From a virus: a stretch of 14,700 bases of DNA. Positions within the stretch are counted from its first letter, which is position 1; the number at the start of each line of letters is the position of its first letter. Made by a program: the position numbers and the translations under genes. The notes beneath the pieces were generated by a model that was not told the DNA's origin, ran no database searches, and saw only the letters and a list, made by a program, of their open reading frames with translations. The stretch is from the UHGV virus genome UHGV-0187445; one strand, given 5' to 3'. Below, piece by piece: positions 123-14,700 of the stretch.

Positions 123-379
123 GTGACAACCTCAACCGACATGGCAGTGAGATCTGCCGGGTCCATCTCTGCAATTTCCTGTGCAGTCAGTGCCGGACTG
201 GAGATGCGGGGGATCACGGTCATCATCGCGTTTACATCCATATCCATAATGGCCTGCAGGCGTGTACCGCGCAGCGCACCGGACTGCGGTTTACGCAGCA
301 CAATTTCGGTGATTTCTGTTTTACCGCGCTTGATGGGGGTATCCAGTTGAATGGTCTTTTCAGTCTGCTTATCGCTCAT
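77..379 (-). CDS. E: Phage tail assembly chaperone gpE (P2 E family), copy 1
   Basis: 100 aa ORF directly downstream of tube gene; contains in-frame ACT TTT TTG slippery heptamer near 3' end; position and size as P2 E. Confidence 0.85.
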   Translation of the reverse strand: MSDKQTEKTIQLDTPIKRGKTEITEIVLRKPQSGALRGTRLQAIMDMDVNAMMTVIPRISSPALTAQEIAEMDPADLTAMSVEVVTFLLKKSVLAGLPTA

Positions 380-433
380 TTTGCTGTCCTGTCAATTGGG
401 TTCTGGCGCGGTATCCCGCGCCGTTCAGATATA

Positions 434-949: not shown

Positions 950-958
950 GTTGTCCCC

Positions 959-2131
959 TTACGCGCTGACCTGGCTGGCGAAATTCACCAGGTACTGATC
1001 GGTGATGCGCTGACGCAGCATCAGGTTTTCAAGTGGCGGCACTGGCGTGTAGTCGTAGTCGATGGTGAGTTTTCCGGCTTTCAGCGTGTCTTTGTCGTTC
1101 ACCGACTCATCCAGCCAGCAATCACCACCAATGAGATAGCCCTGACTGACCAGGCTGCGCATTTTGGCGCGGATGCCCTCGATAATGTCGCGCGCCAGCG
1201 ACGGGTTCAGCGGTTTGTCCACTGCCCACATGTGTGCTTCTGCCATCGTGTCCATCAGCACCTGCGCCGTGCGGGTGTAGTTTTCGAAGGCAAAGAGCGG
1301 GTCATCACTCAGGCAGCGGGAACCCCAGAAGCGGAAACCGTCTTTGCGGATAAGGGTGGTGACGTCGTTCTGGTTCAGCAGTCCAGCATCGGTTGCCGTG
1401 TCCTGCAGATCCCAGAACACATCAGCAGAAATTCCAGTGACACCGTTAACGCCCACATTGGACAGGCTTTTGTGCCATCCGGTCTGCTCGTCAATTTTGG
1501 CGCGCAGACCAAGCGCACGAGCGGTGGCATATGCCGTTGCTTCGGCATTCAGCACCGTGTCCCAGCCAGTAAAGTCAGGCCAGATCAGCATCCCTTCGCG
1601 CTGGCTGAAGTTTTCGCGGTAAGTGATCGCCTCCTGCACTGTCTTGCAGCCATACGCTGACAGGTAAGCAAATCCACGCAGGCTTTGCGCCACGCTCAGC
1701 AACTCAGTAGCCACCGCCTTGGTGTCGTGGCCTGGCACGCCGAGAATGCGCGGTTTAACGCCGAGCTGTGACTGGGCAGATAACAGGGCTTTCATACCTG
1801 TTTTTTTACCTTCAGCAGTCACTGCGCCGATGATATTGGTCGTGGTTTCGTCTTCCGTTTCACCCTGCGGCACACGCACAACAATGGTCACGGGTTTTGC
1901 CTGGTCAGCGATGGCATCCAGCGAACGGGCCAGAGTACCGGACTCACCCGCTTTACCGCTGGCAGTCAGCACATCAGTGATCAGCACGGGTTTATTAAGA
2001 GGAAACATTTTTGCATCGGCATCATCGCCCGTGCAGACCATACCCACGATGGCGGTGCTCACCGTGGTAATAGATCGGGTGCCTTCGTTGACTTCAACAA
2101 CGCGCACCCCGTGGTGGTAATCCTGAGCCAT
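959..2131 (-). CDS. FI: Phage contractile tail sheath protein (P2 FI family), copy 1
   Basis: 390 aa; ...DYHHGV...[13 protein letters not shown]...[12 protein letters not shown]... motifs typical of P2 FI; AGGAGG RBS 8 nt upstream of ATG at 2131. Confidence 0.9.
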
Positions 2132-2207
2132 AGTGGCGAACCTCCTGATTGGATTAGGCTTCGCCCTATGTTGAAGTGATTGTGCCTGACAAACAGCTAA
2201 ACGCAGT

Positions 2208-2225
2208 TGTGTCGTTATTCACACA
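2208..2225 (-). promoter_or_regulatory. TGT-N12-ACA dyad (P2 late-promoter Ogr/Delta-type activator site), candidate P_F of module 1
   Basis: TGTgtcgttattcacACA seen directly; centre about 85 bp upstream of FI(1) ATG. Confidence 0.5.
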
Positions 2226-2273
2226 AAATAACGGTATTTGTCTGCTTGCAGGGATAATCAACATAATGCTGAT

Positions 2274-2840
2274 TCAGGGGGATTCATTGATCTTATTTGC
2301 CGGAAATTTTCTATAAATGGTAGAAACGCCTACATCAAAAATCAGTGCAATACGCTGTCTTGATTCTCCGGCCTCGAGTAAACGCCCAATCTGTGCCCAC
2401 TGTTCGGTGGTCAACTTAGGACGGCGTCCACCTACTCTGCCTTTGGCACGAGCTGCAGCCAGCCCTGCCCTGGTACGTTCAACTATCAGTTCGCGTTCCA
2501 TTTCAGCCAGGGCACCCATGACATGAAAAAAGAAACGGCCCATTGGGGTACTGGTATCAATACTGTCAGTCAGGCTTCTGAAATTCACACCACGCTGGCG
2601 CAACTCTTCTATCAGCGTAACAAGATGCCGCATACTGCGCCCCAACCTGTCCAGCTTCCAGACAACCAGCGTGTCTCCTGCCGATAGTGTCCTGAGTAGT
2701 TTTTTCAGCCCCGGTCTGTCGGACTTAGTGCCACTGATTTTGTCCTCAAAAATCCGCTCACATCCCGCGCAGTTCAGTGCATTACGTTGCAAATCGGTGT
2801 TCTGGTCATTTGTTGACACGCGTACATAGCCAATAAGCAT
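2274..2840 (-). CDS. Serine DNA invertase (Hin/Gin/Pin/Cin family), invertase A
   Basis: 188 aa from ATG at 2840 (AGGGGG RBS 6 nt upstream; ORF track start 2846 is 2 codons further). MLIGYVRVSTNDQ catalytic-serine N-terminus, ...GRFFFHVMGALAEMERELIVERT... and C-terminal HTH region typical of the family. Confidence 0.9.
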   Translation of the reverse strand: MLIGYVRVSTNDQNTDLQRNALNCAGCERIFEDKISGTKSDRPGLKKLLRTLSAGDTLVVWKLDRLGRSMRHLVTLIEELRQRGVNFRSLTDSIDTSTPMGRFFFHVMGALAEMERELIVERTRAGLAAARAKGRVGGRRPKLTTEQWAQIGRLLEAGESRQRIALIFDVGVSTIYRKFPANKINESP

Positions 2841-2867
2841 GATCATCCCCCTGAATAAAAACCGGAG

Positions 2868-3389
2868 ATGATGCCAGTTAGCTGTTACCTCTGCATTTTC
2901 TTAAACGTTGGTTTAGGGGAAGGCTCTGCGCTGCCTGTTGGTGTGCCTGTTCCATGGCCTTCAGCCACACCGCCAACAGGCTGGCTGAAATGCAACGGTG
3001 CGGCTTTTTCTGCTGAAGATTACCCTAATCTGGCAAAGGCTTACCCGACGTTAAAATTGCCTGATTTACGCGGTGAGTTTATTCGTGGCTGGGATGGTGG
3101 AAAGGGAGTGGATAGTGGGCGAACTCTGCTTTCAGCACAAGGAGATGCTATCCGAAACATTACCGGGGTGGTTGGCTACAGTTCAATTGGCGATTCACAA
3201 GGGTTATTAGGATACGTGTCAGGGGCCTTTTCGGCTTCGGAGTCAAAAGCTCCCGCATTAAGTGGTGCATCAGCATCCGGGTATCAACGCTCCCTGTATG
3301 CGAATTTTAATGCTTCAGCCGTTGTCCCAACCGCAAATGAGAACCGCCCACGTAACATTGCCTTTAATTATATTGTGAGGGCTGCATAA
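2868..3389 (+). CDS. Tail fibre variable C-terminal cassette (tail-collar-type domain), lacking a constant N-terminal fibre region
   Basis: 173 aa; ...PVGVPVPWPS...GWLKCNGAAFSAEDYPNLAKAYP...LPDLRGEFIRGWD... and C-terminal ...NIAFNYIVRAA resemble Mu S / P1 S-type fibre C-termini; in-frame stop only 3 codons upstream of ATG (2856..2858). Confidence 0.75.
   Translation: MMPVSCYLCIFLNVGLGEGSALPVGVPVPWPSATPPTGWLKCNGAAFSAEDYPNLAKAYPTLKLPDLRGEFIRGWDGGKGVDSGRTLLSAQGDAIRNITGVVGYSSIGDSQGLLGYVSGAFSASESKAPALSGASASGYQRSLYANFNASAVVPTANENRPRNIAFNYIVRAA
2896..2921. repeat. hix/gix-like 26 bp recombination site, left (TTTTCTTAAACG TT GGTTTAGGGGAA; core TT at 2908..2909)
   Basis: Half-sites show 8/12 dyad symmetry around a 2 bp core; resembles Hin-family crossover sites; 55 bp from invertase A start. 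Confidence 0.65.
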
Positions 3390-3991
3390 TGGATAACGCT
3401 GTATTAAATAGCGAGATTATTGCCACGAAGGCAGGGAATATTACCGTCTATAACTATGATGGTGAAATACGGGAATATATTTCCACTTCAAATGAATATC
3501 TTGCCGTTGGTGTTGGTATCCCGGCATATTCCTGTTTAGATTCACCAGGCACATATAAGGCTGGTTATGCTATCTGCCGTTCTGCAGATTTTAACTCATG
3601 GGAATATGTGCCAGACCATCGCGGTGAAATCGTCTATAACACCGAAACGGGAGAAGCCAAAGAAATCACAACTCCGGGTGATTACCCTGAAAATACAACC
3701 ACTATCGCCCCGTTAACGCCATACGATAAATGGGATGGTGAGAAATGGGTGACCGATACTGAGGCACAGCACGGCGCAGCAGTAGATGCAGCAGAAGCAC
3801 AGCGCCAGTCGCTGATTGATACTGCAATGGCCTCCATCAGTCTGATTCAACTGAAATTACAGGCCGGACGGAAGCTGACGCAGGCAGAAACAACCCGCCT
3901 TAACACTGTGCTGGATTACATTGACGTGGTGACGGCAACAGATACCAGCACAGCGCCGGACGTCATCTGGCCTGAACTGCCGGAGGCGTAG
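3389..3991 (+). CDS. Tail fibre assembly chaperone (Tfa/U family)
   Basis: 200 aa; start overlaps upstream stop (TAATG); C-terminal ...DVIWPELPEA motif typical of Tfa proteins. Confidence 0.8.
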   Translation: MDNAVLNSEIIATKAGNITVYNYDGEIREYISTSNEYLAVGVGIPAYSCLDSPGTYKAGYAICRSADFNSWEYVPDHRGEIVYNTETGEAKEITTPGDYPENTTTIAPLTPYDKWDGEKWVTDTEAQHGAAVDAAEAQRQSLIDTAMASISLIQLKLQAGRKLTQAETTRLNTVLDYIDVVTATDTSTAPDVIWPELPEA

Positions 3992-4403
3992 GCCATTCAA
4001 TATCTGGCGCACCGGAAGTATCGACCAGTTCCAGTGCGTACAGATAATCCAGCCACAAATTATATTGCGCCAGTTCCTCACCTTTCAGGCGACAAATCGC
4101 CGCTTTACCAGCCCATTGTCTACTGTTCATATAATCGTTGGCCTGATTAATCAATTGCTGCTTTTTAGTTTCGACTGATGCAATTTGTTCTTCACGTGTT
4201 GGCGGTGGAACATCTGCCCATGCTGGCATTCCATCGTCTCCGGTAATTCTGTACTTACCGTCAGGCGGCGTATCATGGAAATATTCCCTGAAAATAGCTT
4301 CGTCTATATCCACGCCTTTACCTTCGGGCCATTGGCCTTTTGCAGCGTAAACAGACTGGAGGGCATAAGGGTACGCCAGATTATCAACATACAAATATTT
4401 CAT
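3963..4403 (-). CDS. Alternative tail fibre assembly chaperone (Tfa/U' family)
   Basis: 146 aa; C-terminal ...DIEWPTPP... motif; convergent with and overlapping the other tfa by 29 bp. Confidence 0.8.
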   Translation of the reverse strand: MKYLYVDNLAYPYALQSVYAAKGQWPEGKGVDIDEAIFREYFHDTPPDGKYRITGDDGMPAWADVPPPTREEQIASVETKKQQLINQANDYMNSRQWAGKAAICRLKGEELAQYNLWLDYLYALELVDTSGAPDIEWPTPPAVQAR

Positions 4404-4405
4404 AA

Positions 4406-4735
4406 TTAACGCCCTTTCGCGTAGAAGGCTCCACCTTCAAAGCCATAGTTACAATGAGCAACGAAACCTGTTTTCGTCCAGTTAGTTGCGCCCCACATAT
4501 TCCCACCACCAAAACCGCCGTCATATACAATCACTACGTCTGGCTCCTGCGTAAAAGGAATGGTGAAAGTCACATTTGTAGATACCGCCGCGGCGTTATT
4601 CGGGAAATTAATTCTTCCCCACTGTTCAATTGAACCATCAGGCAATTTTTGCCAGCCAGATCCTGATGAATAAGCTGACATATCAGGTATCTGATTTTCC
4701 CCTGTTCCCACATTCCGTTTTGCCGCTTCTCCCAA
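4406..4735 (-). CDS. Alternative tail fibre variable C-terminal cassette (no ATG; ORF-track start is TTG; frame open only to 4759)
   Basis: 109 aa C-terminal glycine-rich fibre tip; N-terminus (..CIFKNVGLGE..) is encoded by the right crossover site and matches the left cassette's CIFLNVGLGE; stop at 4760..4762 immediately outside. Confidence 0.7.
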   Translation of the reverse strand: MGEAAKRNVGTGENQIPDMSAYSSGSGWQKLPDGSIEQWGRINFPNNAAAVSTNVTFTIPFTQEPDVVIVYDGGFGGGNMWGATNWTKTGFVAHCNYGFEGGAFYAKGR

Positions 4736-4752
4736 ACCAACGTTTTTGAAAA
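4727..4752. repeat. hix/gix-like 26 bp recombination site, right (inverted copy; core AA at 4739..4740 on plus strand)
   Basis: Reverse complement reads TTTTCAAAAACG TT GGTTTGGGAGAA, matching the left site at 22 of 26 positions; 54 bp from invertase B start. Confidence 0.65.
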
Positions 4753-4806
4753 TGCATAATTATTAGCCGAATGGCATGATTTATCGTTTTAAAGGAATGA
4801 AAAACC

Positions 4807-5388
4807 ATGCTTATTGGATATGTGCGCGTATCAACAAATGACCAGAACACGGCTTTGCAACGTGATGCGCTTGAGCGGTCAGGATGTGAGCTAATTTTTG
4901 AAGATAAAATGAGCGGGAGAACAGCGGAAAGGCCAGGGCTTAAAAAATTACTAAAGCGCCTTTCTCCAGAAGATACGCTTGTTGTCTGGAAGCTGGATCG
5001 TCTTGGGCGGAGTATGCGGAACTTGGTCATTCTGGTGGAGGAACTAAAGCAACGTTCCGTGAACTTCCGCAGCCTGACTGACAGTATTGATACCTCAACA
5101 CCAATGGGGCGTTTCTTTTTTCATGTTATGGGAGCACTGGCAGAGATGGAGAGAGAATTGATTGTCGAGCGTACGCGTGCAGGACTGGTGGCCGCTCGCG
5201 CGCAGGGAAGGATCGGCGGTAGACGTCCAAAACTAACACCAGAACAATGGGCGCAGGCGGGTAGGTTAATAGCGGCAGGGGAATCGCGCCGGAGGGTTGC
5301 CATAATTTATGATGTTGGGATATCTACGCTTTACAAAAAATTCCCAGCGACCAGAGATAAGAATTCCGGCACGCATGGCCGGTTATAA
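4807..5388 (+). CDS. Serine DNA invertase (Hin/Gin/Pin/Cin family), invertase B
   Basis: 193 aa; AAGGAA RBS; about 80% amino-acid identity by eye to invertase A, in opposite orientation. Confidence 0.9.
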   Translation: MLIGYVRVSTNDQNTALQRDALERSGCELIFEDKMSGRTAERPGLKKLLKRLSPEDTLVVWKLDRLGRSMRNLVILVEELKQRSVNFRSLTDSIDTSTPMGRFFFHVMGALAEMERELIVERTRAGLVAARAQGRIGGRRPKLTPEQWAQAGRLIAAGESRRRVAIIYDVGISTLYKKFPATRDKNSGTHGRL

Positions 5389-5472
5389 CCGTGCTGGCCG
5401 TGTGTATCGAGTACGGTCACTTTTAACGGTGCTGTAGCACGGTCAGTTATGGTGGTGTATTACGGAAGACGA

Positions 5473-5496
5473 AGCGGGCAATGGCCCGCTTTTCTT
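5473..5496 (+). terminator. Rho-independent terminator hairpin (AGCGGGC-aatg-GCCCGCT followed by TTTTCTT), overlapping the stop codon of U on the other strand
   Basis: 7 bp GC-rich stem plus T-tract seen directly; lies between convergent invertase B and U. Confidence 0.6.
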
Positions 5497-5944
5497 ATAT
5501 CGAAAGGTTGGTTTTCACCAGAGAGAAGAGATCGTCGGTAGTGGTTTCAGCCAGCTTTTCCCGTATGTCCTCGCTTACCCGTTTCAGGTTGAGCGTGAAA
5601 TCAATTTTCTTTGCCTTCCCGTCCTTAAAAAACTCCGTCCGGTTTTGCGTGATCTGCTCAATTACATACATGCCGTAGATCCTGCCCGTGCCTTCTATCA
5701 GGGGCCACGGGCGCCCGGAAAAAGCCATAGTTTCCAGCATGACAAGCGACACATCACCGCCGCTTATTTCGGGGTACAGCGTGCCGCTGAGTACGAACGG
5801 TTCTTCATCTGCGCCGATGAACTGATAGCGCGGGGATTTCCCCACGCGATCGTTTTTGACGTGCCGCCAGGAGTTGGTTTTATTCGCACTCTGGTAAGGT
5901 GTGGTTTGCAGTGAAAAGGGGAACATCCCCAGAATCATCATCAT
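5495..5944 (-). CDS. U: Phage tail protein gpU (P2 U family), module 2
   Basis: 149 aa; MMMILGMF... N-terminus and ...WPLIEGTGRIYGMYVIEQ... typical of P2 U; directly downstream of T. Confidence 0.85.
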   Translation of the reverse strand: MMMILGMFPFSLQTTPYQSANKTNSWRHVKNDRVGKSPRYQFIGADEEPFVLSGTLYPEISGGDVSLVMLETMAFSGRPWPLIEGTGRIYGMYVIEQITQNRTEFFKDGKAKKIDFTLNLKRVSEDIREKLAETTTDDLFSLVKTNLSI

Positions 5945-5953
5945 GATATTGCC

Positions 5954-8881
5954 TTAGACGTGATCGGTCAGTTGGGAGCGCTTGCGCCGGTCGGCCTGTT
6001 GCTTCGCTAACGCAAGTTCTTCGCGCACGCGCCTGATAATGGTTTCTTCATCCAGTTTCTGGCCGCTAAAGTCGAAGTTAAGGTTATATACATCGCCACC
6101 CGGAGCAGGCATCAGCGCAGCGACGGAAGCCGCAGACGGAGACGCCGAAACAGGCATCCGTGCGGCGGGCTTCTCAACCTGCCAAGGCGTAACGGAAGCG
6201 ATCAGCGATCCGGCCTGCTGCGTCACCCAATCGGTAAGGGATGGTAGCTGGCGCTGCGCCTGCTTAAGCGGTTCCGAATATCCGCCACGGATCGGGATAT
6301 AGGGCTGCTTATTCTTGAAGACAATTTCGCCGGGGCCGTCTTTCTTCTCCGTGGTATTGGTGGCGATCTTGTCCAGGCTGTTGCTCATCTTCGGCACGAT
6401 GTTGGCCGGGCCTTTGAGCGAGTTAATCAGGTTGTCCTGTTTCTTCTGCTCATCGGTTTTCTTTTTCTCTTCGGCTTTTTTGCTTTCCTTCGCGACTGCC
6501 TGCACGTCACCGGAAAAGGCGTTAACCCGGTCTGCCAGATTGTTTACCGCTTCCGGCGTCATTTGCTGCGCAACCTGCTGCGCTGCTTTCGCTGCGTCGG
6601 GAATGGCGCCCAGCTTTTCCAGAATCCAGCCCAGCCCTTTGGCTACGGCCTGAATGGGAAGCGTCAGCGCGCTGATTGCGGCCCCAACCACCTTACCGAA
6701 GGTTTCCCCTGCACTGGTGCAGGATGCCAGCGCTTCACTGGAAAACTGGATCGGCTCCAGTAGTTTGGTAAACCATTCCCAGACGCCGCTGATCGCGTTG
6801 CCGATACTGTTAAAAATCGGGGCCAGTGGTGCGAATACGGCGTTAAACGACTGCGTTATTGGTTGAAGGCCAGCCATCAGACCGGTAAAGAAGCCGCTGA
6901 AAAATGCCTTAATCGGTTGCCAGAATTTAATTACGGCCACTGCTACCGCAGCAAAGAGAGCAATCAGCCCCCAGACGGGCGCAGAAATGCCAGCCAGTAG
7001 CGTGATAAGCGGGCCGAATACCATGCGACCGGCGCTTAACAATGCCTGCATAGGCGAGCCAGCAAGCCACTGGAACGCACCACCCAGGCGCATTACTCCG
7101 CCAGTCAGACGCGCTATTCCTCCTTCCCCGGCCAGCGAGGTGAAGCTGAGGCGAACAAGTGCCATTGGGCCAAGTACTGCGCCGATGGACAGCATCAGGC
7201 CACCCATGACAACCAGCAAAGCGCCTATGGCTGCGGTGACTTTCATGATTGAACCAACCAGCGCTGGGTTTGCCTCCACCCAGCGGCGGACGCTGCCAAC
7301 CACCTTACTGACGGTAAGCATGATATCCATCAGCGGATCGCGAAGGGTTTCACCTGCTGAACTGAATGCGTTAACCGCGCCGGTTTTGGTCAGTTGCCAT
7401 TGAGCAGAAAGGGAAGCTTTATTGATATCAGACTCCCTATTCATGGAACCTTTAGCGGCTGCGCCCTGCGTCAGTTCTATCTGGCGGCGTAGTTCGGGCA
7501 GGTTGTTGGCAAGTTTCTGCGCATCATCGCCGAACTCTTTGCCAAAAATCTGGGTAAGGTTGGCTACCTGCTGATCCGGGGCCAGTTTTTTGGACGCTTC
7601 CAGCACTGAAATGATTGTGCCCATCGCGTCCACTGACATGCTCTTCTGAACTTTTTCGGCGCTGAGGCCGAGGGCGTCCAGACCCTGCATAAAGTTTTTG
7701 CCCTGAACCGTAGCGATTGAGAGTTCGCGCACCATTGCATTGGTGGCGCTGGCGGCAACTTCGGCAGGGGTGCCGAGCGTCAGAAAGGTGGAACCCAGCG
7801 CGGCGGCTTGCTTGTAATCCAGTTGGCTGGCAAGCCCACCAACGCGCTGGAGTACGTCGATAATATCGGAGCCTTTCGACTTCGCGTTATCGTCCAGGTA
7901 GTTTATGGCGTCGCCTAACTGTTCAATATTCTGGGTGGGGATTTTATACAGCCCGGCAATTTTCCCCAGGCTTTCAGAAAGCTGATCGGCGGGCAGTTCA
8001 AAGGCTACCGAAGCTTTTGCCGCCATGCTGGCAAAAGACAGCAGATCGGCTTTTTGCTTTTGCCAGGGATCATCGCTGTTTGCGACGCCCATACGCGCGC
8101 CGCCTTCGACCAGGGCGGCATAGTCAACAGCACCGTTAGCCATTGGCAGCTTTTCGCTGGCATCCATGATCGCCCGCTGCATTTCTTCATACTGCGGGGT
8201 GCGGTTGCCGCTGTCGTCACGTAAGCCATTTACCTGTTTGGCTACGCCCTTCATCGCGTCTTCGAGGCTGCTGTAGGATTTCACCGCAGCGGCGACAGGT
8301 ACGAGTGTTGCCGCCCCTACTGCGGCGGTTTTCATTCCCCCGCTCATCATCTTTTCGCCGGTTTCTTTGGCGCGGCTGTAACGGGCCTGCGCCTGGTTAA
8401 CAGCGTCAAGCCGTCGTTGCTGTTCAGCAAGCTGGCGGTTGTATTGCGCGGTGCGCTGGTTGATCTGTTCCGTCGCCCGGCTGGCGCTGCTGATCGCAAT
8501 GCCTTCGCTGTAGAAGCTGGCCCGCAACTGGTTAAGCTGCGTCTGCTCGCCTTTCTGCTGCTGGGTTAACTGGCGAATGGCTGCACGTTGCTGATTGAGG
8601 GCGGCAACTTGTTCGGCGCTGCGCTGGCGTAACGGGCCATAAGCCGCCGCCATTTGCCGGGCCTGTTCTTTCGCCTGGGCCAGTTGTTCGGTGGTTTTTT
8701 TATTGGCTGCGGTGAGGCGGTCAAAGCTGGTTGCCTGACGCTCAAGCCCTTTAATGCTGGTTTTAGTCTGGTTGATTTGAGACGCCAACGCGGCGGCACT
8801 CTGGCGCGCCGCGTTGACAGGGCGGGACATATTATTCAGGGCGCTGAATGCCACCCTGATATTTAAATTGCGGTCTGCCAT
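5954..8881 (-). CDS. T: Phage tail tape measure protein (P2 T family), module 2
   Basis: 975 aa; N-terminal coiled-coil-rich region, central hydrophobic segments, position between E' and U. Confidence 0.9.
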   Translation of the reverse strand: MADRNLNIRVAFSALNNMSRPVNAARQSAAALASQINQTKTSIKGLERQATSFDRLTAANKKTTEQLAQAKEQARQMAAAYGPLRQRSAEQVAALNQQRAAIRQLTQQQKGEQTQLNQLRASFYSEGIAISSASRATEQINQRTAQYNRQLAEQQRRLDAVNQAQARYSRAKETGEKMMSGGMKTAAVGAATLVPVAAAVKSYSSLEDAMKGVAKQVNGLRDDSGNRTPQYEEMQRAIMDASEKLPMANGAVDYAALVEGGARMGVANSDDPWQKQKADLLSFASMAAKASVAFELPADQLSESLGKIAGLYKIPTQNIEQLGDAINYLDDNAKSKGSDIIDVLQRVGGLASQLDYKQAAALGSTFLTLGTPAEVAASATNAMVRELSIATVQGKNFMQGLDALGLSAEKVQKSMSVDAMGTIISVLEASKKLAPDQQVANLTQIFGKEFGDDAQKLANNLPELRRQIELTQGAAAKGSMNRESDINKASLSAQWQLTKTGAVNAFSSAGETLRDPLMDIMLTVSKVVGSVRRWVEANPALVGSIMKVTAAIGALLVVMGGLMLSIGAVLGPMALVRLSFTSLAGEGGIARLTGGVMRLGGAFQWLAGSPMQALLSAGRMVFGPLITLLAGISAPVWGLIALFAAVAVAVIKFWQPIKAFFSGFFTGLMAGLQPITQSFNAVFAPLAPIFNSIGNAISGVWEWFTKLLEPIQFSSEALASCTSAGETFGKVVGAAISALTLPIQAVAKGLGWILEKLGAIPDAAKAAQQVAQQMTPEAVNNLADRVNAFSGDVQAVAKESKKAEEKKKTDEQKKQDNLINSLKGPANIVPKMSNSLDKIATNTTEKKDGPGEIVFKNKQPYIPIRGGYSEPLKQAQRQLPSLTDWVTQQAGSLIASVTPWQVEKPAARMPVSASPSAASVAALMPAPGGDVYNLNFDFSGQKLDEETIIRRVREELALAKQQADRRKRSQLTDHV

Positions 8882-9082
8882 TTAGTGATCTCCACCACTG
8901 CGCGCAGCCGCCTGATCACGCCATAACAGTATTTCCTGTACCGTCATGGCGTCCATCTCTACCGGCCGCCAGTGGAATATGACGGCGATATCTGCCATCA
9001 GGTCTTCTATGCGTTCGCAGGGGCATCGGATGATTCGTTGCCCGTATCCGTCGCGGTCAGATCCGAAGAGGGTTGCAAAAAA
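8882..9082 (-). CDS. E': E' extension of E+E' fusion, module 2 (-1 programmed frameshift at T TTT TTG, plus-strand 9076..9082); full E+E' spans 8882..9342
   Basis: Hand translation of the -1 frame from the heptamer gives a stop-free 66-codon tail (FATLFGSDRDGYGQRIIRCPCERIEDLMADIAVIFHWRPVEMDAMTVQEILLWRDQAAARSGGDH) ending at TAA 8882..8884, directly abutting the T start codon (TAAATG). Confidence 0.75.
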   Translation of the reverse strand, partial: FFATLFGSDRDGYGQRIIRCPCERIEDLMADIAVIFHWRPVEMDAMTVQEILLWRDQAAARSGGDH

Positions 9083-9342
9083 TCAACCACCGCGTTGGCT
9101 AGCTGGCAAAAATCCCAGGTATCCATACGGGCAATCTCATCGGCGGTTAGTGCCGGAGCGGTAACGCGGGGCAGCAGAATAACCAGCGCGTCATAGTTGG
9201 AAGTCAGCACGTCATAGGCTTTTAAGCCGCGCAGTGATCCAGCCTGTTTAAGCACGGAAGTGATCGCCACTTCGGTGATTTTGGTCTTACCGCGCGTAAT
9301 AGGGGCGGTAAGAATAACGGTGTTTTCTTTGGTTTTGCTCAT
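9007..9342 (-). CDS. E: Phage tail assembly chaperone gpE, module 2
   Basis: 111 aa; in-frame GAT TTT TTG heptamer 25 codons before the stop; downstream of tube gene. Confidence 0.85.
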   Translation of the reverse strand: MSKTKENTVILTAPITRGKTKITEVAITSVLKQAGSLRGLKAYDVLTSNYDALVILLPRVTAPALTADEIARMDTWDFCQLANAVVDFLQPSSDLTATDTGNESSDAPANA

Positions 9343-9356
9343 GGTGCCGGGTTTCC

Positions 9357-9872
9357 TTATAGGCCGATGTTAGCGCGGTGTTTTTCCAGCACATCCACAC
9401 CGGCAACTTTGTAGATCATGTTGAGCACATCAACTTCGATAATCTCTTCGCCGTTGATGGTCAGCTTGTAATAGGTGTTTTTCAGGGTGTACTTATGCGA
9501 AGTGTCATCCCCGACTTTTGCCGAACCGGGATCCAGTTCAGTGAAGCGGCCACGCGTCTGGATTTCGCACGGTACAGCGTCGCCGGTTGCGTCGTCCTGA
9601 TAGGAGCCAGCAAAACGTGTTTGCATCCCGTCCGCAGTGGTAACGCCCCATTTTTTCAGCAATCCGGCATCCAGACCGCCAAGCGTGATATCCATATCCA
9701 GGGCGCCAGCGTCGAAGCCAAGATCCACCGCAACCGAACCTGGCATACCACCCGCCTGGTAGTCTTCGGTTTTTTTGGTGAGTTTGGCGGGGGTGATTTC
9801 CGGCACCATGCCGAAGTAGTTATCCCCGTCAAAGAACATATTGAAATATTTGAGTTTCTTAGGCAGTGCCAT
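9357..9872 (-). CDS. FII: Phage major tail tube protein (P2 FII family), module 2
   Basis: 171 aa; MALPKKLKYFNMF... and ...HRANIGL; same length as module-1 FII but highly diverged. Confidence 0.9.
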   Translation of the reverse strand: MALPKKLKYFNMFFDGDNYFGMVPEITPAKLTKKTEDYQAGGMPGSVAVDLGFDAGALDMDITLGGLDAGLLKKWGVTTADGMQTRFAGSYQDDATGDAVPCEIQTRGRFTELDPGSAKVGDDTSHKYTLKNTYYKLTINGEEIIEVDVLNMIYKVAGVDVLEKHRANIGL

Positions 9873-9884
9873 AAGCGCCCCCGG

Positions 9885-11078
9885 TTAGTTATTCACTGCG
9901 CTGGAAAACGTAGCGAAATATTCGTCGGTGAACTCCTGTACCAGGCTGAGATTTTCCAGCGGTGGAACAGGGGTGTAGTTGTACTTAATGGTCAGTTGAC
10001 CATTGCGCAGGGTTTCCGAGGTATTCGGTTCCGGGTCATACCAGCAGCGGGCGCCCAGCAGCTTGCCAGCCGTCACGTATGAGGTCAGCTTCTTATTGAT
10101 GCCGTCCACAATGTCCTTTACCAGCGACGGGGTAAGCGGTTTATCAACATAGGCGAAATGGGCTTCGGCGACGGTATCCGCAACTATCTGCGCGGTTCGG
10201 GTATAGCTTTCGAAGATATACGTTTCCGCGTCGCAGGTACGCGATCCCCAGATGCGGTAGCCGTCCTGCTTGATCAGCGTGGTAACGCCTGCTGCGTTCA
10301 GTTCGTCGGCGTCGGTATCGGTGCCCTGCAACGTGAAATAGATATCCCGATCCATCCCCAGCACGTTATTAACGGGCACGTTGGAAATGGTTTTATGCCA
10401 GCCCTGCGTTGCGTCGATTTTGGCTCGCATCCCAACAGCATGGGCACCCACGGGCACGGTGGCATTAGCCCCGGCGTTGGTGTCGTAGCAGATGAAATTA
10501 GGCCAGATAACCATCATTTCACGCTGGGAGAATTGCTCGCGGTATTCCTTCACTTCGGCGATTGTGTTGCAACCGTTCGCTGCCACGTAAGCAAACGCGC
10601 GCAGCTTTTCGGCAATGACGCCGAGTTGTGCGGCTACCGCTTCCGTATCAAGCCCTGGAACAGCCAGTACACGCGGGCGCACACCTACGCGCATTTCGGC
10701 AGACAGCAGCGCGTACATGCCGGTAAAGCGCCCGTTTGCATCGGTGCCGCCAATAACCAGTTGATCCTGGGTCTGTGCGGTGCCGCCTTCTGGCGGTTCG
10801 ATATTTGCAGCATCAGCAACGCGGATCACAATGGTTTGCGGGCTGGTCTGGTCTGAAATCGCTTTCAGGGTGGTAAACAGGGTGCCGGTTTTACCTGCCT
10901 TGCCCAGCATGTTAGCCACGCGGGTAATCAGTACAGGGGTATCCAGCGGGAACGCTGTTTCGTCCGCATCATCAGCGGTGCAGACAACGCCGATCACCGC
11001 CGAATCAATGTCGGTGATCATCGTGCTAAGGTCGGTGGTTTCCGTGACGGTTACACCGTGATGGTAGTTAGTGGCCAT
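9885..11078 (-). CDS. FI: Phage contractile tail sheath protein (P2 FI family), module 2
   Basis: 397 aa; ...NYHHGV...TTLIKQDGYRIWG...[12 protein letters not shown]...; roughly half the residues identical to module-1 FI by eye. Confidence 0.9.
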   Translation of the reverse strand: MATNYHHGVTVTETTDLSTMITDIDSAVIGVVCTADDADETAFPLDTPVLITRVANMLGKAGKTGTLFTTLKAISDQTSPQTIVIRVADAANIEPPEGGTAQTQDQLVIGGTDANGRFTGMYALLSAEMRVGVRPRVLAVPGLDTEAVAAQLGVIAEKLRAFAYVAANGCNTIAEVKEYREQFSQREMMVIWPNFICYDTNAGANATVPVGAHAVGMRAKIDATQGWHKTISNVPVNNVLGMDRDIYFTLQGTDTDADELNAAGVTTLIKQDGYRIWGSRTCDAETYIFESYTRTAQIVADTVAEAHFAYVDKPLTPSLVKDIVDGINKKLTSYVTAGKLLGARCWYDPEPNTSETLRNGQLTIKYNYTPVPPLENLSLVQEFTDEYFATFSSAVNN

Positions 11079-11150
11079 GTATTTGCCTCGCCAGTTTAAT
11101 GACTGCGAATATCATTGCGGCAATGGCGGGCCGATGCGATGGATAAGGGT

Positions 11151-11168
11151 TGTCAGCAACCTGCAACA
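11151..11168. promoter_or_regulatory. TGT-N12-ACA dyad (P2 late-promoter activator site) between divergent FI(2) and D
   Basis: TGTcagcaacctgcaACA seen directly; centre about 81 bp upstream of FI(2) ATG and about 77 bp upstream of D ATG. Confidence 0.5.
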
Positions 11169-11235
11169 ATGACGGGGCGTTGTTCATGCGCGCGCGCGTG
11201 GCGACGATGTACCCCATCATGATGAAGGGGTTGAT

Positions 11236-12354
11236 ATGGACACGACAGAAAACCGATATTCGCCGCGCCCGGCGTTCAGTATTGAGATTGAAGGTAAGCA
11301 GCTTACGGCGCTGGATAACCGGCTGATCTCCCTTTCCCTGACAGATAACCGGGGCTTTGAAGCGGACACGCTGGATCTGACTCTGGATGATGCAGACGGG
11401 CAGGTAGCCTTACCATCACGCGGCGCAAAGATATCGGTGGCGCTGGGCTGGGATAATGATCCATTGGTTTTTAAGGGCGTGTATACGGTTGACGAGATCG
11501 GACACTCTGGCCCGCCTGACCAGCTAACGATCAGTGCCAGAAGCGCAGATTTCCGCGATACCTTTAACGTGAAGAGGGAATATAGCTGGCACGATATTAC
11601 CGTGGGGGATGTGGTTGCCAGCATTGCCAGCCGTTACGATCTGCGTGCGGGCGTCAGCGAAGAACTGGCGAAGATTGAGATAGATCACGCCGATCAGACG
11701 AGTGAATCAGATATCAGCTTCTTAACGCGCATGGCCGAAATGCTGGGCGCGGTGGCAACCATTAAAAACGGTATGCTTCTGTTTATCACGCCGGGCAAGG
11801 GAGTAACGCAGAGCGGCAAGCCGCTGCCGGTGATCGAGATAGTCCGGTCAAGCGGTGATAAACATCGGTTTAACGTAGCTGACCGCGACGCGTACACGGG
11901 CGTAACTGCATACTGGCTTGATCTCAACTTTGGCAAGAAACCATCCACTACCGTGAAGAAAACCACCCGCAGGCGACGAACCAGCCAGGCCAAAAAGAAA
12001 GAACCCGCATCAAGCAAAAAAGAAGGGGATTATCTGGCCGGGGCCGAAGGCAACGTTTTTGTTATCCGTAAAACCTTCAAGACGGAAAAGGCGGCAAAGC
12101 GTGCCGCAGCGGCTAAGTGGCGGGAGTTGCAGCGCGGGGCGGCTACGTTCAGCATCACCCTGGCGCGTGGGCGCGCGGATTTGTACCCGGAACAGCCAGC
12201 CAGTGTTTATGGGTTTAAGTCCACGATCGACAGTGGAAGCTGGACGATAACACGGTGCGTTCACGATGTTGGCGGGGGAGGGTTTACCACGTCGCTGGAA
12301 CTGGAAGTAAAAATCGACGACTGGACAGCGGAGAGTGACGATTCAACGTCTTAA
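11236..12354 (+). CDS. D: Phage late control / tail protein gpD (P2 D family)
   Basis: 372 aa; ...DLTLDDADGQVALPSRGAKISVALGW...GPPDQLTISARSADFRDTFNVKREYSW...DAYTGVTAYW... typical of P2 D; GAAGGGG RBS. Confidence 0.85.
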   Translation: MDTTENRYSPRPAFSIEIEGKQLTALDNRLISLSLTDNRGFEADTLDLTLDDADGQVALPSRGAKISVALGWDNDPLVFKGVYTVDEIGHSGPPDQLTISARSADFRDTFNVKREYSWHDITVGDVVASIASRYDLRAGVSEELAKIEIDHADQTSESDISFLTRMAEMLGAVATIKNGMLLFITPGKGVTQSGKPLPVIEIVRSSGDKHRFNVADRDAYTGVTAYWLDLNFGKKPSTTVKKTTRRRRTSQAKKKEPASSKKEGDYLAGAEGNVFVIRKTFKTEKAAKRAAAAKWRELQRGAATFSITLARGRADLYPEQPASVYGFKSTIDSGSWTITRCVHDVGGGGFTTSLELEVKIDDWTAESDDSTS

Positions 12355-12402
12355 GCGTTATACTTGCGTTGATATTAACCAGTCATGAAAGGAGGCCCGC
12401 GT

Positions 12403-12645
12403 ATGGCAATGCGCTGTCCTCGCTGCCGTGCTATAGCAAAAACCAGAACCAGCGTTGAGCTGAGTTTGCTTGTACGGCGCAGCTATCACCAGTGTCAAAA
12501 CATGTTATGCGGGTACTGTTTCACCAGCATGACGGAAATAGACGGTTCATTAAACCAGACCCAGCCAGCGCCCGGCGCGATGGTGCCACAAGAAGCTTTT
12601 CCACGAAGTCACCACGGCGAAGATCAGCTATCGCTGGCACTGTAA
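12403..12645 (+). CDS. ogr: Late-gene transcriptional activator, Ogr/Delta zinc-finger family
   Basis: 80 aa from ATG at 12403 (AAAGGAGG RBS 7 nt upstream); CPRC ... HQCQNMLC Cys4 motif matching the Ogr ...YHQCQN.C signature; follows D as in P2. Confidence 0.8.
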   Translation: MAMRCPRCRAIAKTRTSVELSLLVRRSYHQCQNMLCGYCFTSMTEIDGSLNQTQPAPGAMVPQEAFPRSHHGEDQLSLAL

Positions 12646-12647
12646 AA

Positions 12648-12676
12648 ATAACCCGCCTACATGGCGGGTTTCTTAT
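12648..12676 (+). terminator. Rho-independent terminator after ogr (ACCCGCC-tacat-GGCGGGT then TTCTTAT)
   Basis: Hairpin plus U-rich tract seen directly, 5 nt after ogr stop. Confidence 0.6.
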
Positions 12677-12734
12677 ACCTGTTACCCCTGATATTATTTT
12701 TCAACTTTCACAGTGGTGCTTAAAAGGTAGGGAT

Positions 12735-13118
12735 ATGAAAAAGTTAATCATGGTACTTGCGCTGTTTAGCCTTGTTGGATGTAAGCCCGGTGCTGATAAA
12801 GCGGTTGAGTTGGGGCAGAAAGAAGTTGCTTCAAGTATGCGCGATCCTGATAGCGCGAAATTCAGGTATGTACGTTTTGTTCAGAAAGACGAAGCTGCTG
12901 ATGGTGCTGTTGTCGGTTACGTCTGCGGGCAGGTAAACGCCAAAAATGCGTTTGGTGCGTATGCTGGTTTTGCACCTTTTGAAATGGAATTGTCGATGAA
13001 GTCGAAGGGGTTCTTCTCAAAAGGGGTAACTTACTCTGTATTTAACAAGCAACTGTATTCAGACCCAGGACAGGTAAACATGGCCGAATATACGAAGAAG
13101 TGCGGCCCTGATCAATAG
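12735..13118 (+). CDS. Small lipoprotein of unknown function (signal peptide with lipobox LVGC); candidate prophage cargo
   Basis: 127 aa from ATG at 12735 (GGTAGGG RBS); MKKLIMVLALFSLVGC lipoprotein signal; no family recognised by eye. Confidence 0.65.
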   Translation: MKKLIMVLALFSLVGCKPGADKAVELGQKEVASSMRDPDSAKFRYVRFVQKDEAADGAVVGYVCGQVNAKNAFGAYAGFAPFEMELSMKSKGFFSKGVTYSVFNKQLYSDPGQVNMAEYTKKCGPDQ

Positions 13119-13145
13119 GTTAAGTTTTAGGCAAATGTTTGAATA

Positions 13146-13170
13146 GACCGGGCAGAAGCCCGGCTTTTTT
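13146..13170 (+). terminator. Rho-independent terminator after lipoprotein gene (GACCGGGC-agaa-GCCCGGC then TTTTTT)
   Basis: Perfect GC-rich hairpin plus T6 seen directly. Confidence 0.7.
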
Positions 13171-13261
13171 CTGTCGAAGTGTAGTCAAAATGTAGACGAA
13201 GATTAGAATAAATCCTTTTATTCCATTGTGTTACTGGCTGGATTTCTTCACCATCCCTGTC

Positions 13262-13290
13262 TTCCCCCACATGATGTGGGGGTTTTTTTT
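13262..13290 (+). terminator. Strong stand-alone rho-independent terminator (CCCCCAC-atgat-GTGGGGG then T8); no ORF upstream
   Basis: Hairpin plus T8 seen directly, about 90 bp after the previous terminator and about 80 bp before fieF. Confidence 0.65.
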
Positions 13291-13371
13291 ATCCTCAATT
13301 TGCCTGCTGCTTAATGCATTGCAGATGATTTGCTTCCGTTATACTAGCGTCAGTTGATAGCGGGAGTATTT

Positions 13372-14274
13372 ATGAATCAATCTTATGGACGGCTGGTCAG
13401 TCGGGCGGCGATTGCTGCGACGGCGATGGCTTCGTTGCTATTGCTGATTAAAATTTTTGCATGGTGGTATACCGGGTCGGTGAGTATTCTCGCCGCGCTG
13501 GTGGATTCGCTGGTGGATATCGGCGCGTCGTTGACGAATTTACTGGTGGTGCGATATTCCCTGCAACCTGCCGACGATAATCACTCGTTTGGTCACGGTA
13601 AAGCTGAGTCCCTCGCGGCGCTGGCGCAAAGTATGTTTATCTCCGGTTCGGCACTATTCCTGTTTTTGACGGGTATTCAACATCTGATATCTCCAACACC
13701 GATGACAGATCCAGGCGTTGGGGTTATCGTGACAATTGTGGCGCTAATTTGTACGATTATCCTTGTCTCGTTTCAGCGTTGGGTGGTGCGGCGGACGCAA
13801 AGCCAGGCGGTGCGGGCTGATATGCTACATTACCAGTCTGATGTTATGATGAACGGTGCAATTCTGCTGGCGCTGGGGTTGTCCTGGTACGGCTGGCATC
13901 GCGCCGATGCTCTGTTTGCATTGGGAATCGGCATCTATATTTTATATAGCGCGTTACGCATGGGATATGAGGCGGTACAGTCATTACTGGATCGCGCATT
14001 GCCTGATGAGGAACGGCAAGAAATTATTGATATCGTGACTTCCTGGCCGGGTGTTAGCGGCGCTCACGATCTTCGCACGCGGCAGTCAGGGCCGACCCGC
14101 TTTATTCAGATTCATTTGGAAATGGAAGACTCTCTGCCTTTGGTTCAGGCACATATGGTGGCGGATCAGGTAGAGCAGGCTATTTTACGGCGTTTTCCGG
14201 GATCGGATGTGATTATCCATCAGGACCCCTGTTCCGTCGTACCCAGGGAGGGTAAACGGTCTATGCTTTCATAA
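13372..14274 (+). CDS. fieF: Ferrous-iron/zinc efflux cation diffusion facilitator FieF (YiiP)
   Basis: 300 aa from [13 protein letters not shown]...; recognised as E. coli FieF; ORF-track start at 13354 is an upstream in-frame extension. Confidence 0.93.
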
Positions 14275-14454
14275 TCAGTATAAAAGAGAGCCAGACCCGC
14301 ATTTTGTGTATAAAATACCGCCATTTGGCCTGACCTGAATCAATTCAGCAGGAAGTGATTGTTATACTATTTGCACATTCGTTGGATCACTTCGATGTGC
14401 AAGAAGACTTCCGGCAACAGATTTCATTTTGCATTCCAAAGTTCAGAGGTAGTC

Positions 14455-14700
14455 ATGATTAAGAAAATCGGTGTGTTGACAAGCGGCGGTGATGCGCCAG
14501 GCATGAACGCCGCAATTCGCGGGGTTGTTCGTTCTGCGCTGACAGAAGGTCTGGAAGTAATGGGCATTTATGACGGCTATCTGGGTCTGTATGAAGACCG
14601 TATGGTACAGCTAGACCGTTACAGCGTTTCTGACATGATCAACCGTGGTGGTACGTTCCTCGGTTCTGCGCGTTTCCCGGAATTCCGCGACGAGAACATC
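14455..14700 (+). CDS. pfkA: 6-phosphofructokinase I, N-terminal part (truncated by window end)
   Basis: [32 protein letters not shown]... recognised as E. coli PfkA; GAGG RBS. Confidence 0.93.

What the first reader, a model, noticed from the sequence alone, without database searches (positions are those of the whole stretch)
13171..13300. Orphan strong terminator in a gene-free stretch upstream of fieF: possible sRNA or host 3'UTR/att remnant
A second, very strong intrinsic terminator (CCCCCAC-atgat-GTGGGGG-T8, 13262..13290) lies about 90 bp after the lipoprotein terminator with no ORF between them. Such a layout suggests either a short non-coding transcript ending here or the displaced 3' end of the host gene into whose downstream region the prophage integrated. 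From memory, cpxP lies upstream of fieF in E. coli K-12 and its 3'UTR yields the CpxQ sRNA, so this may be that terminator now separated from cpxP, with the phage-host junction between about 12650 and 13260; I could not verify this.
Basis: inference. Interest (0 to 1): 0.45.

Follow-up and report, generated by a model that had tools for sequence, protein, structure and literature searches.

The report
Prophage attR copy of CpxQ terminator
The "orphan" terminator is the right-hand attachment site (attR) of a P2-like prophage that integrates into the end of the cpxP/CpxQ small-RNA gene, so it is a duplicated copy of the CpxQ terminator and an ordinary, already documented consequence of phage integration.

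Summary
The hairpin plus T8 is real (stem-loop 13264-13282, T8 13283-13290) and lies about 93 nt after the lipoprotein-gene terminator, with no annotated gene between them. From 13249 rightwards the window is E. coli chromosome. Positions 13249-13371 occur in 5426/5426 complete E. coli genomes and align to the cpxP-fieF spacer. Positions 13249-13290 equal nt 17-58 of the annotated 58-nt CpxQ sRNA.

The 45 bp at 13249-13293 are also identical in the attP of phage WPhi (SEN5 attP has one difference), so they form the att common core. WPhi-type phages are already recorded as integrating at cpxP-fieF.

The "gene-free stretch" 13171-13248 is the phage P arm. It carries the P2-type integrase arm-site dyad at 13180-13197, exactly 51 nt from the core, as in 61 of 68 other attP/attR copies.

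In a near-identical lysogen (strain 0H26), attL keeps cpxP followed by a complete CpxQ and terminator. The host gene is therefore not deprived; the terminator is duplicated.

Novelty and interest are low. The only untested twist is a possible phage/CpxQ chimeric RNA ending at attR.

The parts
13249..13293 (.). att common core (O) of the WPhi-type attachment site, 45 bp: CACCATCCCTGTCTTCCCCCACATGATGTGGGGGTTTTTTTTATC
   Evidence: Identical in attR (window), attL of strain 0H26, attB of E. coli B and attP of WPhi. SEN5 attP has one G>T change. Flanks diverge exactly at these borders.
13249..13290 (+). Copy of CpxQ sRNA nt 17-58: single-stranded region, terminator hairpin and U8. The 5' 16 nt of CpxQ are absent here.
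   Evidence: K-12 RefSeq ncRNA cpxQ b4716 mapped by alignment. The 58-nt cpxQ sequence is in PMC9753035 Table S3, and the 58-nt size is given in PMC6755755.
13264..13282 (+). Terminator stem-loop, a 19-bp perfect palindrome. By inference it is also the inverted-repeat core-type integrase binding sites flanking the strand-exchange region.
   Evidence: The role as Int core sites is inferred from the general architecture of tyrosine-recombinase sites and was not tested.
13283..13290 (+). T8 tract of the intrinsic terminator (Hfq-binding U-tail in CpxQ)
   Evidence: The Hfq role is taken from the literature (PMC9438474, PMC9753035).
13171..13248 (.). Phage P arm of attP, now the phage side of attR. 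This is the 'gene-free stretch'.
   Evidence: 12646-13293 is 95% identical to Salmonella phages SEN4/SEN5 attP-proximal DNA. It does not align to the E. coli cpxP-fieF spacer.
13180..13197 (+). Arm-type integrase binding dyad TGTAGTCaaaaTGTAGAC (P2-type consensus tgTGGaCa)
   Evidence: It is the only match in the window, with 0 expected in 200 shuffles. One copy lies on each side of the core in WPhi and SEN5 attP, one in attL and one in attR. In 61 of 68 foreign-flank core copies it lies exactly 51 nt from the core. The consensus is from PMC3448106.
13148..13170 (+). Intrinsic terminator of the phage lipoprotein gene
   Evidence: -14.9 kcal/mol, z = -4.1
12735..13118 (+). Phage accessory gene ('moron') between ogr and attP, encoding a 127-aa lipoprotein of unknown function
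   Evidence: Lipobox by translation. It matches phrog_2320, of unknown function. There are no Pfam, NCBIfam or PADLOC hits.
13294..13371 (+). Host B' flank: the unchanged cpxP-fieF spacer upstream of fieF
   Evidence: Identical to E. coli B and K-12
13372..14274 (+). fieF (host gene)
   Evidence: RefSeq annotation of strain 0H26 and E. coli B

Best explanation
The feature is the attR junction (P-O-B') of a P2-like (Peduoviridae, SEN4/SEN5-like) prophage that uses the WPhi-type attachment site between cpxP and fieF.

The 45-bp common core (13249-13293) is identical in phage and host. It consists of the last 42 nt of the cpxP 3'UTR-derived sRNA CpxQ, including its Rho-independent terminator, plus 3 nt. 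Site-specific recombination inside this core duplicates it. The attL copy, next to int, reconstitutes cpxP with full CpxQ and its terminator. The attR copy, which is this finding, is left behind the phage P arm and in front of fieF.

The 78 bp between the lipoprotein terminator and the core are the phage P arm, with its two arm-type Int sites. That is why the stretch has no gene.

Shown here: the identity of the core in attP, attB, attL and attR; the arm-site architecture; the map onto CpxQ; and the intact CpxQ at attL in a sister lysogen.

Inferred: (i) the 19-bp palindrome supplies the inverted core-type Int binding sites, and strand exchange occurs around its centre; (ii) as RNA, the attR copy terminates any transcription leaving the prophage right end (ogr or lipoprotein read-through), so fieF stays insulated, as it is from cpxP in non-lysogens; (iii) in the free phage the same hairpin separates the convergent ogr/moron and int transcription units.
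For: Host identity begins at 13249, and 13249-13371 is present in 5426/5426 E. coli genomes. It aligns to the E. coli B and K-12 cpxP-fieF spacers. K-12 annotates the 58-nt cpxQ exactly there.

The 45-nt core is 100% identical in WPhi (AY135739, AJ245959), fiAA91-ss, the Yersinia P2-like phages and others. The five-way attR/attL/attB/attP alignment shows flanks switching exactly at the core borders.

In strain 0H26, which is 99.83% identical to window 4679-14700, the integrase gene and cpxP lie at the other prophage end. The attL sequence there has the cpxP stop, the full CpxQ, the core and then the P' arm.

The arm-site dyad is unique in the window and is present once per arm in all att forms. 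It sits at a fixed 51-nt distance in 61 of 68 copies.

The literature records Wphi1 at 'cpxP-fieF' in E. coli W (PMC3032704). It also gives the WPhi integration coordinate 4104392 in MG1655 and the P2-type arm consensus (PMC3448106). A 31.7-kb prophage lies between fieF and cpxP in Salmonella Infantis (bioRxiv 10.64898/2026.03.17.712176).
Against: The window does not contain attL, so retention of CpxQ next to cpxP is shown only in a sister genome and in other lysogens, not in the source genome. The left part of the window (left of about 4679-4790) comes from a different P2-like prophage. In the source genome the two ends of this prophage may therefore no longer be adjacent. The exact crossover position, Int binding to the palindrome, an IHF site (best matches to WATCAANNNNTTR have 2 mismatches) and terminator activity at attR were not tested and cannot be tested with sequence tools.
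Confidence: 0.93

Rival explanations
1. A functional chimeric small RNA is made at attR. Transcription would start in or read through the phage P arm and stop at the CpxQ terminator. The product would be about 50-75 nt, with a phage-derived 5' end fused to the CpxQ Hfq-binding 3' module (nt 17-58). It could act as a CpxQ mimic, competitor or Hfq sponge.
For: A sigma-70-like match TAGTCA-16-TAGAAT at 13182-13209 would place a start near 13216. The attR copy keeps the terminator and U8, and the single-stranded CACCAUCCCUGUCUU segment of CpxQ. GGA|UUU at 13240-13245 fits the RN|WUU RNase E motif; this is my own reading of the sequence, with the motif recalled from memory.
Against: The promoter scan is at chance level (15 found against 13.2 expected). 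The match overlaps the Int arm sites. By eye it has no counterpart in the WPhi P arm shown. The 5' seed (nt 1-16), which the literature says pairs with nhaB and cfa (PMC6755755), is missing, as is half of CpxQ's first small hairpin. The RN|WUU motif is expected about once per 64 nt by chance. No expression data exist here.
Confidence: 0.07
2. Simple displacement, the first reader's literal reading: the prophage inserted between cpxP and its terminator, leaving cpxP without CpxQ or a terminator and stranding the only copy in front of fieF.
For: In the window, the copy is indeed separated from cpxP by phage DNA.
Against: attP itself carries the whole core including the terminator. attL in 0H26 has the complete 58-nt CpxQ and terminator. 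At least 23 further core copies with the native CpxQ 5' part are followed by phage P' arms.
Confidence: 0.02
3. A chance GC hairpin plus T-run with no biological meaning.
For: The generic terminator scan finds about as many sites as in shuffled sequence.
Against: It is exactly conserved in every E. coli genome and in more than 120 enterobacterial species representatives. It is annotated as the cpxQ terminator in K-12.
Confidence: 0.01

Closest known systems
Attachment site of coliphage WPhi (Peduovirus Wphi; prophage Wphi1 of E. coli W) at cpxP-fieF
   Same: The 45-bp common core is identical. There is the same arrangement of one arm-type dyad (TGTRGWC-N4-TGTRGAC) on each arm. The P-arm dyad is 51 nt from the core. 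The host locus is the same (PMC3032704; PMC3448106).
   Different: The arm sequences outside the dyads have diverged. This phage carries an extra lipoprotein gene between ogr and attP (WPhi has none). Its FI-FII-E-T-U tail block is on the opposite strand to D-ogr, as in SEN4/SEN5.
CpxQ, the Hfq-dependent sRNA cut from the cpxP 3'UTR (E. coli b4716; Chao & Vogel 2016, Grabowicz et al. 2016)
   Same: Window 13249-13290 equals CpxQ nt 17-58. It has the same terminator hairpin and U8. The only difference from K-12 is A instead of C at nt 42, in the loop.
   Different: Nt 1-16 (UUUUCCUUGCCAUAGA, the 5' seed) are replaced by phage DNA, along with the upstream cpxP context that holds the RNase E processing site. 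The copy is not transcribed from the CpxR-dependent cpxP promoter. The first small hairpin of CpxQ is disrupted.
Salmonella phages SEN4/SEN5 (Senquatrovirus)
   Same: 12646-13293 is 95% identical, covering the ogr terminator, the lipoprotein gene, the P arm and the core. The gene order is the same.
   Different: SEN5's attP core has one G>T change in the 3' stem arm. The host is Salmonella.
Temperate phages that integrate into the 3' ends of tRNA, tmRNA or sRNA genes and restore them (186/tRNA-Ile, Fels-2/ssrA, P2-like phages at ryeE=cyaR and rybB)
   Same: The core overlaps the 3' hairpin of a conserved RNA gene. The phage carries the 3' part, so the gene is rebuilt at one junction and a partial duplicate is left at the other (PMC3448106; PMC3603311; PMC3032704).
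   Different: The target is a processed 3'UTR-derived sRNA rather than an independently transcribed RNA gene. I found no paper in the searchable library that states this link for CpxQ.

Membership tests
WPhi-type P2-like phage attachment site (attR form) | Common core sequence identical between phage attP and bacterial attB | tested here: met
   The 45 bp at 13249-13293 are identical in WPhi attP, E. coli B attB, 0H26 attL and the window.
WPhi-type P2-like phage attachment site (attR form) | Arm-type integrase binding direct repeats (P2-type consensus tgTGGaCa) flanking the core on the phage side | tested here: met
   TGTAGTCaaaaTGTAGAC lies at 13180-13197, with 0 expected by chance. It has the same position as in 61 of 68 other copies. 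The consensus is from PMC3448106.
WPhi-type P2-like phage attachment site (attR form) | Direct repeat of the core at the other prophage end, next to a tyrosine integrase gene | tested here: inconclusive
   The other end is outside the window. The feature is met in strain 0H26, which is 99.83% identical over 10 kb: int at L003 9233-10213, then the core, then cpxP.
WPhi-type P2-like phage attachment site (attR form) | Host locus between cpxP and fieF | tested here: met
   fieF and pfkA follow at 13372 onwards. [quoted passage not shown]
WPhi-type P2-like phage attachment site (attR form) | Int/IHF/Cox binding and recombination activity | not testable with these tools
   There is only a weak IHF-consensus match with 2 mismatches. 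Biochemistry is needed.
CpxQ sRNA (complete, functional gene) | Full 58-nt sequence including the 5' seed (nt 1-16) | tested here: not met
   Only nt 17-58 are present. The upstream 16 nt are ACTGGCTGGATTTCTT, from the phage.
CpxQ sRNA (complete, functional gene) | Located immediately downstream of the cpxP stop codon and processed from cpxP mRNA | tested here: not met
   It is preceded by phage ogr, a lipoprotein gene and the P arm.
CpxQ sRNA (complete, functional gene) | Rho-independent terminator hairpin plus U-tract (Hfq-binding module) | tested here: met
   There is an 8-bp GC-rich stem and U8, at -14.4 kcal/mol.
CpxQ sRNA (complete, functional gene) | Match to a curated RNA family | tested here: inconclusive
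   No Rfam family reaches its gathering score, in the window or in intact E. coli B CpxQ. The only notable hit is RF02628 Hrs1 on the opposite strand (44.5 bits on intact CpxQ, 25 bits here). Rfam appears to have no correctly oriented CpxQ model.
Intrinsic (Rho-independent) terminator | GC-rich hairpin directly followed by a run of at least 5 U | tested here: met
Intrinsic (Rho-independent) terminator | Actual termination of transcripts at 13290 in this context | not testable with these tools
   This needs Term-seq or a Northern blot on a lysogen.

The most novel reading that the evidence does not exclude
Integration of WPhi-type phages may create a second, phage-controlled CpxQ-like RNA at attR. 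It would have a phage-specified 5' end fused to the CpxQ Hfq-binding 3' module, made by read-through or P-arm-initiated transcription and perhaps trimmed by RNase E. Roughly one in seven E. coli genomes would then carry an altered Cpx/Hfq regulatory input supplied by a prophage junction. The estimate of one in seven comes from extra core copies.
Probability: 0.07. Interest if true: 0.5.

Novelty: already known. Interest (0 to 1): 0.17.

Why it matters
The main value is in explaining the feature and in annotation. The finding accounts fully for an apparently orphan strong terminator and a gene-free stretch. It also fixes the prophage-host boundary to a 45-bp core.

It makes explicit a link I did not find stated in the searchable literature. 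The long-known WPhi attachment site 'between cpxP and fieF' is in fact the 3' 42 nt of the CpxQ sRNA, which was discovered later (2016). This adds CpxQ to CyaR/RyeE, RybB and SdsR/RyeB as Hfq-dependent sRNA loci used as P2-like phage targets.

The core is exactly conserved in more than 120 enterobacterial species, which explains why such phages appear in Escherichia, Salmonella, Enterobacter and Citrobacter. Lysogens carry a truncated CpxQ duplicate that could be mis-annotated as an sRNA gene or could confuse RNA-seq read mapping for CpxQ.

Tried and rejected
Rfam at gathering thresholds over the whole window gave nothing. Permissive Rfam searches on the window and on intact CpxQ gave only sub-threshold hits, the best being Hrs1 on the wrong strand.

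I looked for an independent promoter. The only match overlaps the arm sites and comes from a scan at chance level.

I looked for an IHF consensus in the P arm. The matches have no fewer than 2 mismatches, so an IHF site is inferred only from the P2 paradigm.

I tried to read the primary WPhi att papers (Liu & Haggard-Ljungquist 1999, PMC113030; Karlsson et al. 2006, PMC1482927) and Chao & Vogel 2016. None is held. The published core length and crossover, and the second CpxQ seed, could therefore not be checked. What I say about a second (internal) seed and the RN|WUU motif rests on memory.

Literature searches for CpxQ together with prophage or integration terms found no paper describing the phage-CpxQ link.

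Pfam, NCBIfam and PADLOC gave nothing for the lipoprotein.

I searched for a complete E. coli genome containing the window's left-hand two-invertase junction. None exists among 5426 genomes.

Full report
OBSERVATION. The window reads CCCCCACATGATGTGGGGG at 13264-13282, followed by eight T at 13283-13290. The terminator scan lists it as an 8-pair, 6-GC stem with a T-rich tail. The repeat finder shows a perfect 19-nt palindrome with 9-nt arms around G13273. As RNA it folds to -14.4 kcal/mol. The lipoprotein gene (12735-13118; lipobox LVGC) has its own terminator at 13148-13163 plus T6 at 13165-13170, so 93 nt separate the two terminators. Only two short mechanical ORFs with non-ATG starts overlap the gap. 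RefSeq annotates nothing there in a near-identical genome.

WHERE THE HOST BEGINS. A megablast of 13120-13371 against 5426 complete E. coli genomes matched all of them, but only over query positions 130-252. These correspond to window 13249-13371. Just 25 genomes matched the full length. In an unoccupied genome (E. coli B) the match lies between cpxP and fieF and starts 26 nt after the cpxP stop codon. K-12 MG1655 RefSeq annotates the 58-nt ncRNA cpxQ (b4716) at 4106330-4106387. Alignment shows that window 13249-13290 equals CpxQ nt 17-58, with one difference in the hairpin loop: window, B and 0H26 have A, and K-12 has C at CpxQ nt 42, which is window 13274. The 58-nt CpxQ sequence is given in PMC9753035 Table S3, and the 58-nt size in PMC6755755. 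CpxQ is the RNase E-processed, Hfq-dependent 3'UTR sRNA of cpxP, and it is exceptionally conserved among enterobacteria (PMC9438474).

WHY THE TERMINATOR IS THERE TWICE. Searching 12646-13300 against phage records showed two things. The whole stretch up to 13293 is 95% identical to Salmonella phages SEN4/SEN5. In addition, the 45 nt at 13249-13293 are 100% identical in WPhi, fiAA91-ss, R18C, the Yersinia P2-like phages and many other P2-like phages. In both WPhi and SEN5 these 45 nt lie between ogr (or ogr plus the lipoprotein gene) and int, which is where attP lies in P2-like phages.

A five-way alignment of attR (window), attL (strain 0H26), attB (E. coli B) and attP (WPhi, SEN5) shows a shared core. 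The left flank is either host (attB, attL) or phage (attP, attR). The right flank is either host (attB, attR) or phage (attP, attL). The flanks switch exactly at the core borders. This is the signature of site-specific integration.

In strain 0H26 the region corresponding to window 4679-14700 is 99.83% identical. There the other prophage end has int followed by cpxP. The attL sequence reads cpxP stop, TAAACCCTG, the complete 58-nt CpxQ including the hairpin and T8, ATC, and then phage DNA. So cpxP keeps CpxQ and its terminator, and the copy in the window is the attR duplicate.

WHAT THE GENE-FREE STRETCH IS. Positions 13171-13248 are the phage P arm. They contain TGTAGTCaaaaTGTAGAC at 13180-13197, which matches the P2-type arm-site consensus tgTGGaCa (PMC3448106). 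The dyad pattern TGTRGWC-N4-TGTRGAC occurs once in the window, with 0 expected in 200 shuffles. It occurs once on each side of the core in WPhi and SEN5 attP, once in attL and once in attR. I also collected core copies from species-representative genomes and IMG/VR contigs. Of the 68 copies with a non-CpxQ 5' flank (attP or attR), 63 have the dyad within 120 nt, and in 61 it lies exactly 51 nt from the core. Conversely, 110 of the roughly 121 chromosomal copies are preceded by the exact CpxQ 5' part TTTTCCTTGCCATAGA. Many of those are followed by phage P' arms, which makes them attL copies with an intact CpxQ.

WHAT IS ALREADY KNOWN. The E. coli W genome paper lists prophage Wphi1 (P2-type) at 'cpxP-fieF', beside P2-like prophages at 'rybB ncRNA' and 'cyaR RNA' (PMC3032704). 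Nilsson et al. give the WPhi and L-413C integration site as MG1655 coordinate 4104392 and note that L-413C has the same core as WPhi (PMC3448106). If my recollection is right that this locus is shifted by 1977 bp between MG1655 sequence versions, that coordinate falls in the hairpin loop; I could not verify the offset. A 2026 preprint places a 31.7-kb prophage between fieF and cpxP in Salmonella Infantis. Bobay et al. proposed sRNA hairpins as integrase targets and cited ryeB and ryeE (PMC3603311). I found no paper in the searchable library stating that the WPhi core is the 3' part of CpxQ. That is a small clarification, not a new kind of thing.

MECHANISM (shown versus inferred). The att identity, the duplication, the arm architecture and the CpxQ mapping are shown. 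Three steps are inferred. First, the two 9-nt palindrome arms probably act as the inverted core-type Int binding sites, with strand exchange around the loop. Second, the attR copy probably stops transcripts leaving the prophage (ogr or lipoprotein read-through), so that fieF remains insulated as in non-lysogens. Third, in the free phage the hairpin sits between the convergent ogr/moron and int units. No good IHF consensus match was found in the P arm; the best matches have 2 mismatches.

RIVALS. An independent or chimeric sRNA ending at 13290 cannot be excluded without RNA data. The only promoter-like match (13182-13209) comes from a scan at chance level and overlaps the arm sites. The copy also lacks the CpxQ 5' seed used for nhaB and cfa (PMC6755755) and half of CpxQ's first hairpin. 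Simple displacement of the terminator from cpxP is contradicted by attL in sister lysogens. A chance origin is excluded by the conservation.

FREQUENCY AND BREADTH. The 252-nt query gave 6261 places in 5426 genomes, and the 45-nt core gave 5153 places in 4488 genomes. This means roughly 15% extra core copies, consistent with about one in seven complete E. coli genomes carrying an element at this site. The 45-mer missed 938 genomes, possibly because a central mismatch such as the K-12 loop allele leaves no 28-nt exact word for megablast; I did not check this. The 41-nt core pattern is exact in more than 120 species-representative genomes. These include Escherichia, Salmonella, Citrobacter, Klebsiella, Enterobacter, Kosakonia, Raoultella, Kluyvera, Lelliottia, Yokenella, and some Serratia, Mixta and Erwinia assemblies. 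It is also exact in 85 IMG/VR viral contigs.

VERDICT. The finding is real and is now fully explained. It is the attR copy of the WPhi-type att core, which is the 3' two-thirds of CpxQ including its terminator, preceded by the phage P arm. It is already known in kind and in locus, and interest is low.

Noticed in passing
window 1-5400 (junction region 2858-4790): The left part of the window belongs to a different P2-like prophage. It holds a second tail sheath (962-2131, minus strand) and a second Hin-type invertase (2277-2846, minus strand). This invertase faces the prophage's own invertase (4807-5385, plus strand) across an invertible tail-fibre segment bounded by 65-nt inverted repeats (2858-2922 and 4726-4790). 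Strain 0H26 has the normal V-W-J-I-H layout there. None of 5426 complete E. coli genomes holds the two-invertase arrangement contiguously. This suggests an inter-prophage inversion or recombination at the invertase crossover sites, or an assembly chimera. If real, attL and attR of this prophage are no longer adjacent in the source genome.
   Followed up: partly
L001 1470-1542 (E. coli B CpxQ) and window 13206-13290, minus strand: Rfam RF02628 'Hrs1' (Hfq-regulated sRNA 1) matches the reverse complement of CpxQ end to end, at 44.5 bits (below its gathering score of 56.4). Its consensus starts with A7 followed by a hairpin. Hrs1 therefore looks like a CpxQ homologue modelled on the wrong strand, and Rfam has no correctly oriented CpxQ family.
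   Followed up: partly
window 13274 (centre of the att core; CpxQ nt 42): There is a loop polymorphism. K-12 MG1655 has C (ATGCT). The window, E. coli B, 0H26, WPhi and all 121 core copies in species-representative genomes have A. Among 85 viral contigs, 81 have A and 4 have C. The base lies at the centre of the palindrome, where strand exchange is expected, so the K-12 allele might impair integration of A-type phages.
   Followed up: partly
L043 1047-2925 (Citrobacter amalonaticus P55, NZ_JBALIF010000010.1): A 1.8-kb integrase-less element sits between cpxP and fieF. It is bounded by a complete attL (core plus P' arm with the arm dyad) and a complete attR (P arm with the arm dyad plus core). 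It carries only a 339-aa ORF with no Pfam hit and a 154-aa Fic/Doc-family protein. It looks like a prophage reduced to its att arms plus cargo, potentially mobilisable in trans by a WPhi-type integrase.
   Followed up: partly
window 12735-13118: This is an accessory gene between ogr and attP encoding a 127-aa lipoprotein. It matches phrog_2320 (function unknown) and has no Pfam, NCBIfam or PADLOC match. It is shared with SEN4/SEN5 and present with this arm in only 25 of 5426 E. coli genomes. It may be a lysogenic-conversion or exclusion factor.
   Followed up: partly
L005 (SEN5 attP core; alignment A2 column ~142): The SEN5 attP core has GTGGGGT instead of GTGGGGG in the 3' stem arm. If the crossover is in the loop, integration would place this weaker stem and longer U-run onto the host's CpxQ at attL. 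A phage could therefore subtly edit the host sRNA terminator.
   Followed up: no
window 5498-11078 versus 11236-12645: The tail genes FI, FII, E, T and U are on the minus strand while D and ogr are on the plus strand. The FI-U block is thus inverted relative to the canonical P2 order, as in Senquatrovirus SEN4/SEN5 and strain 0H26.
   Followed up: no
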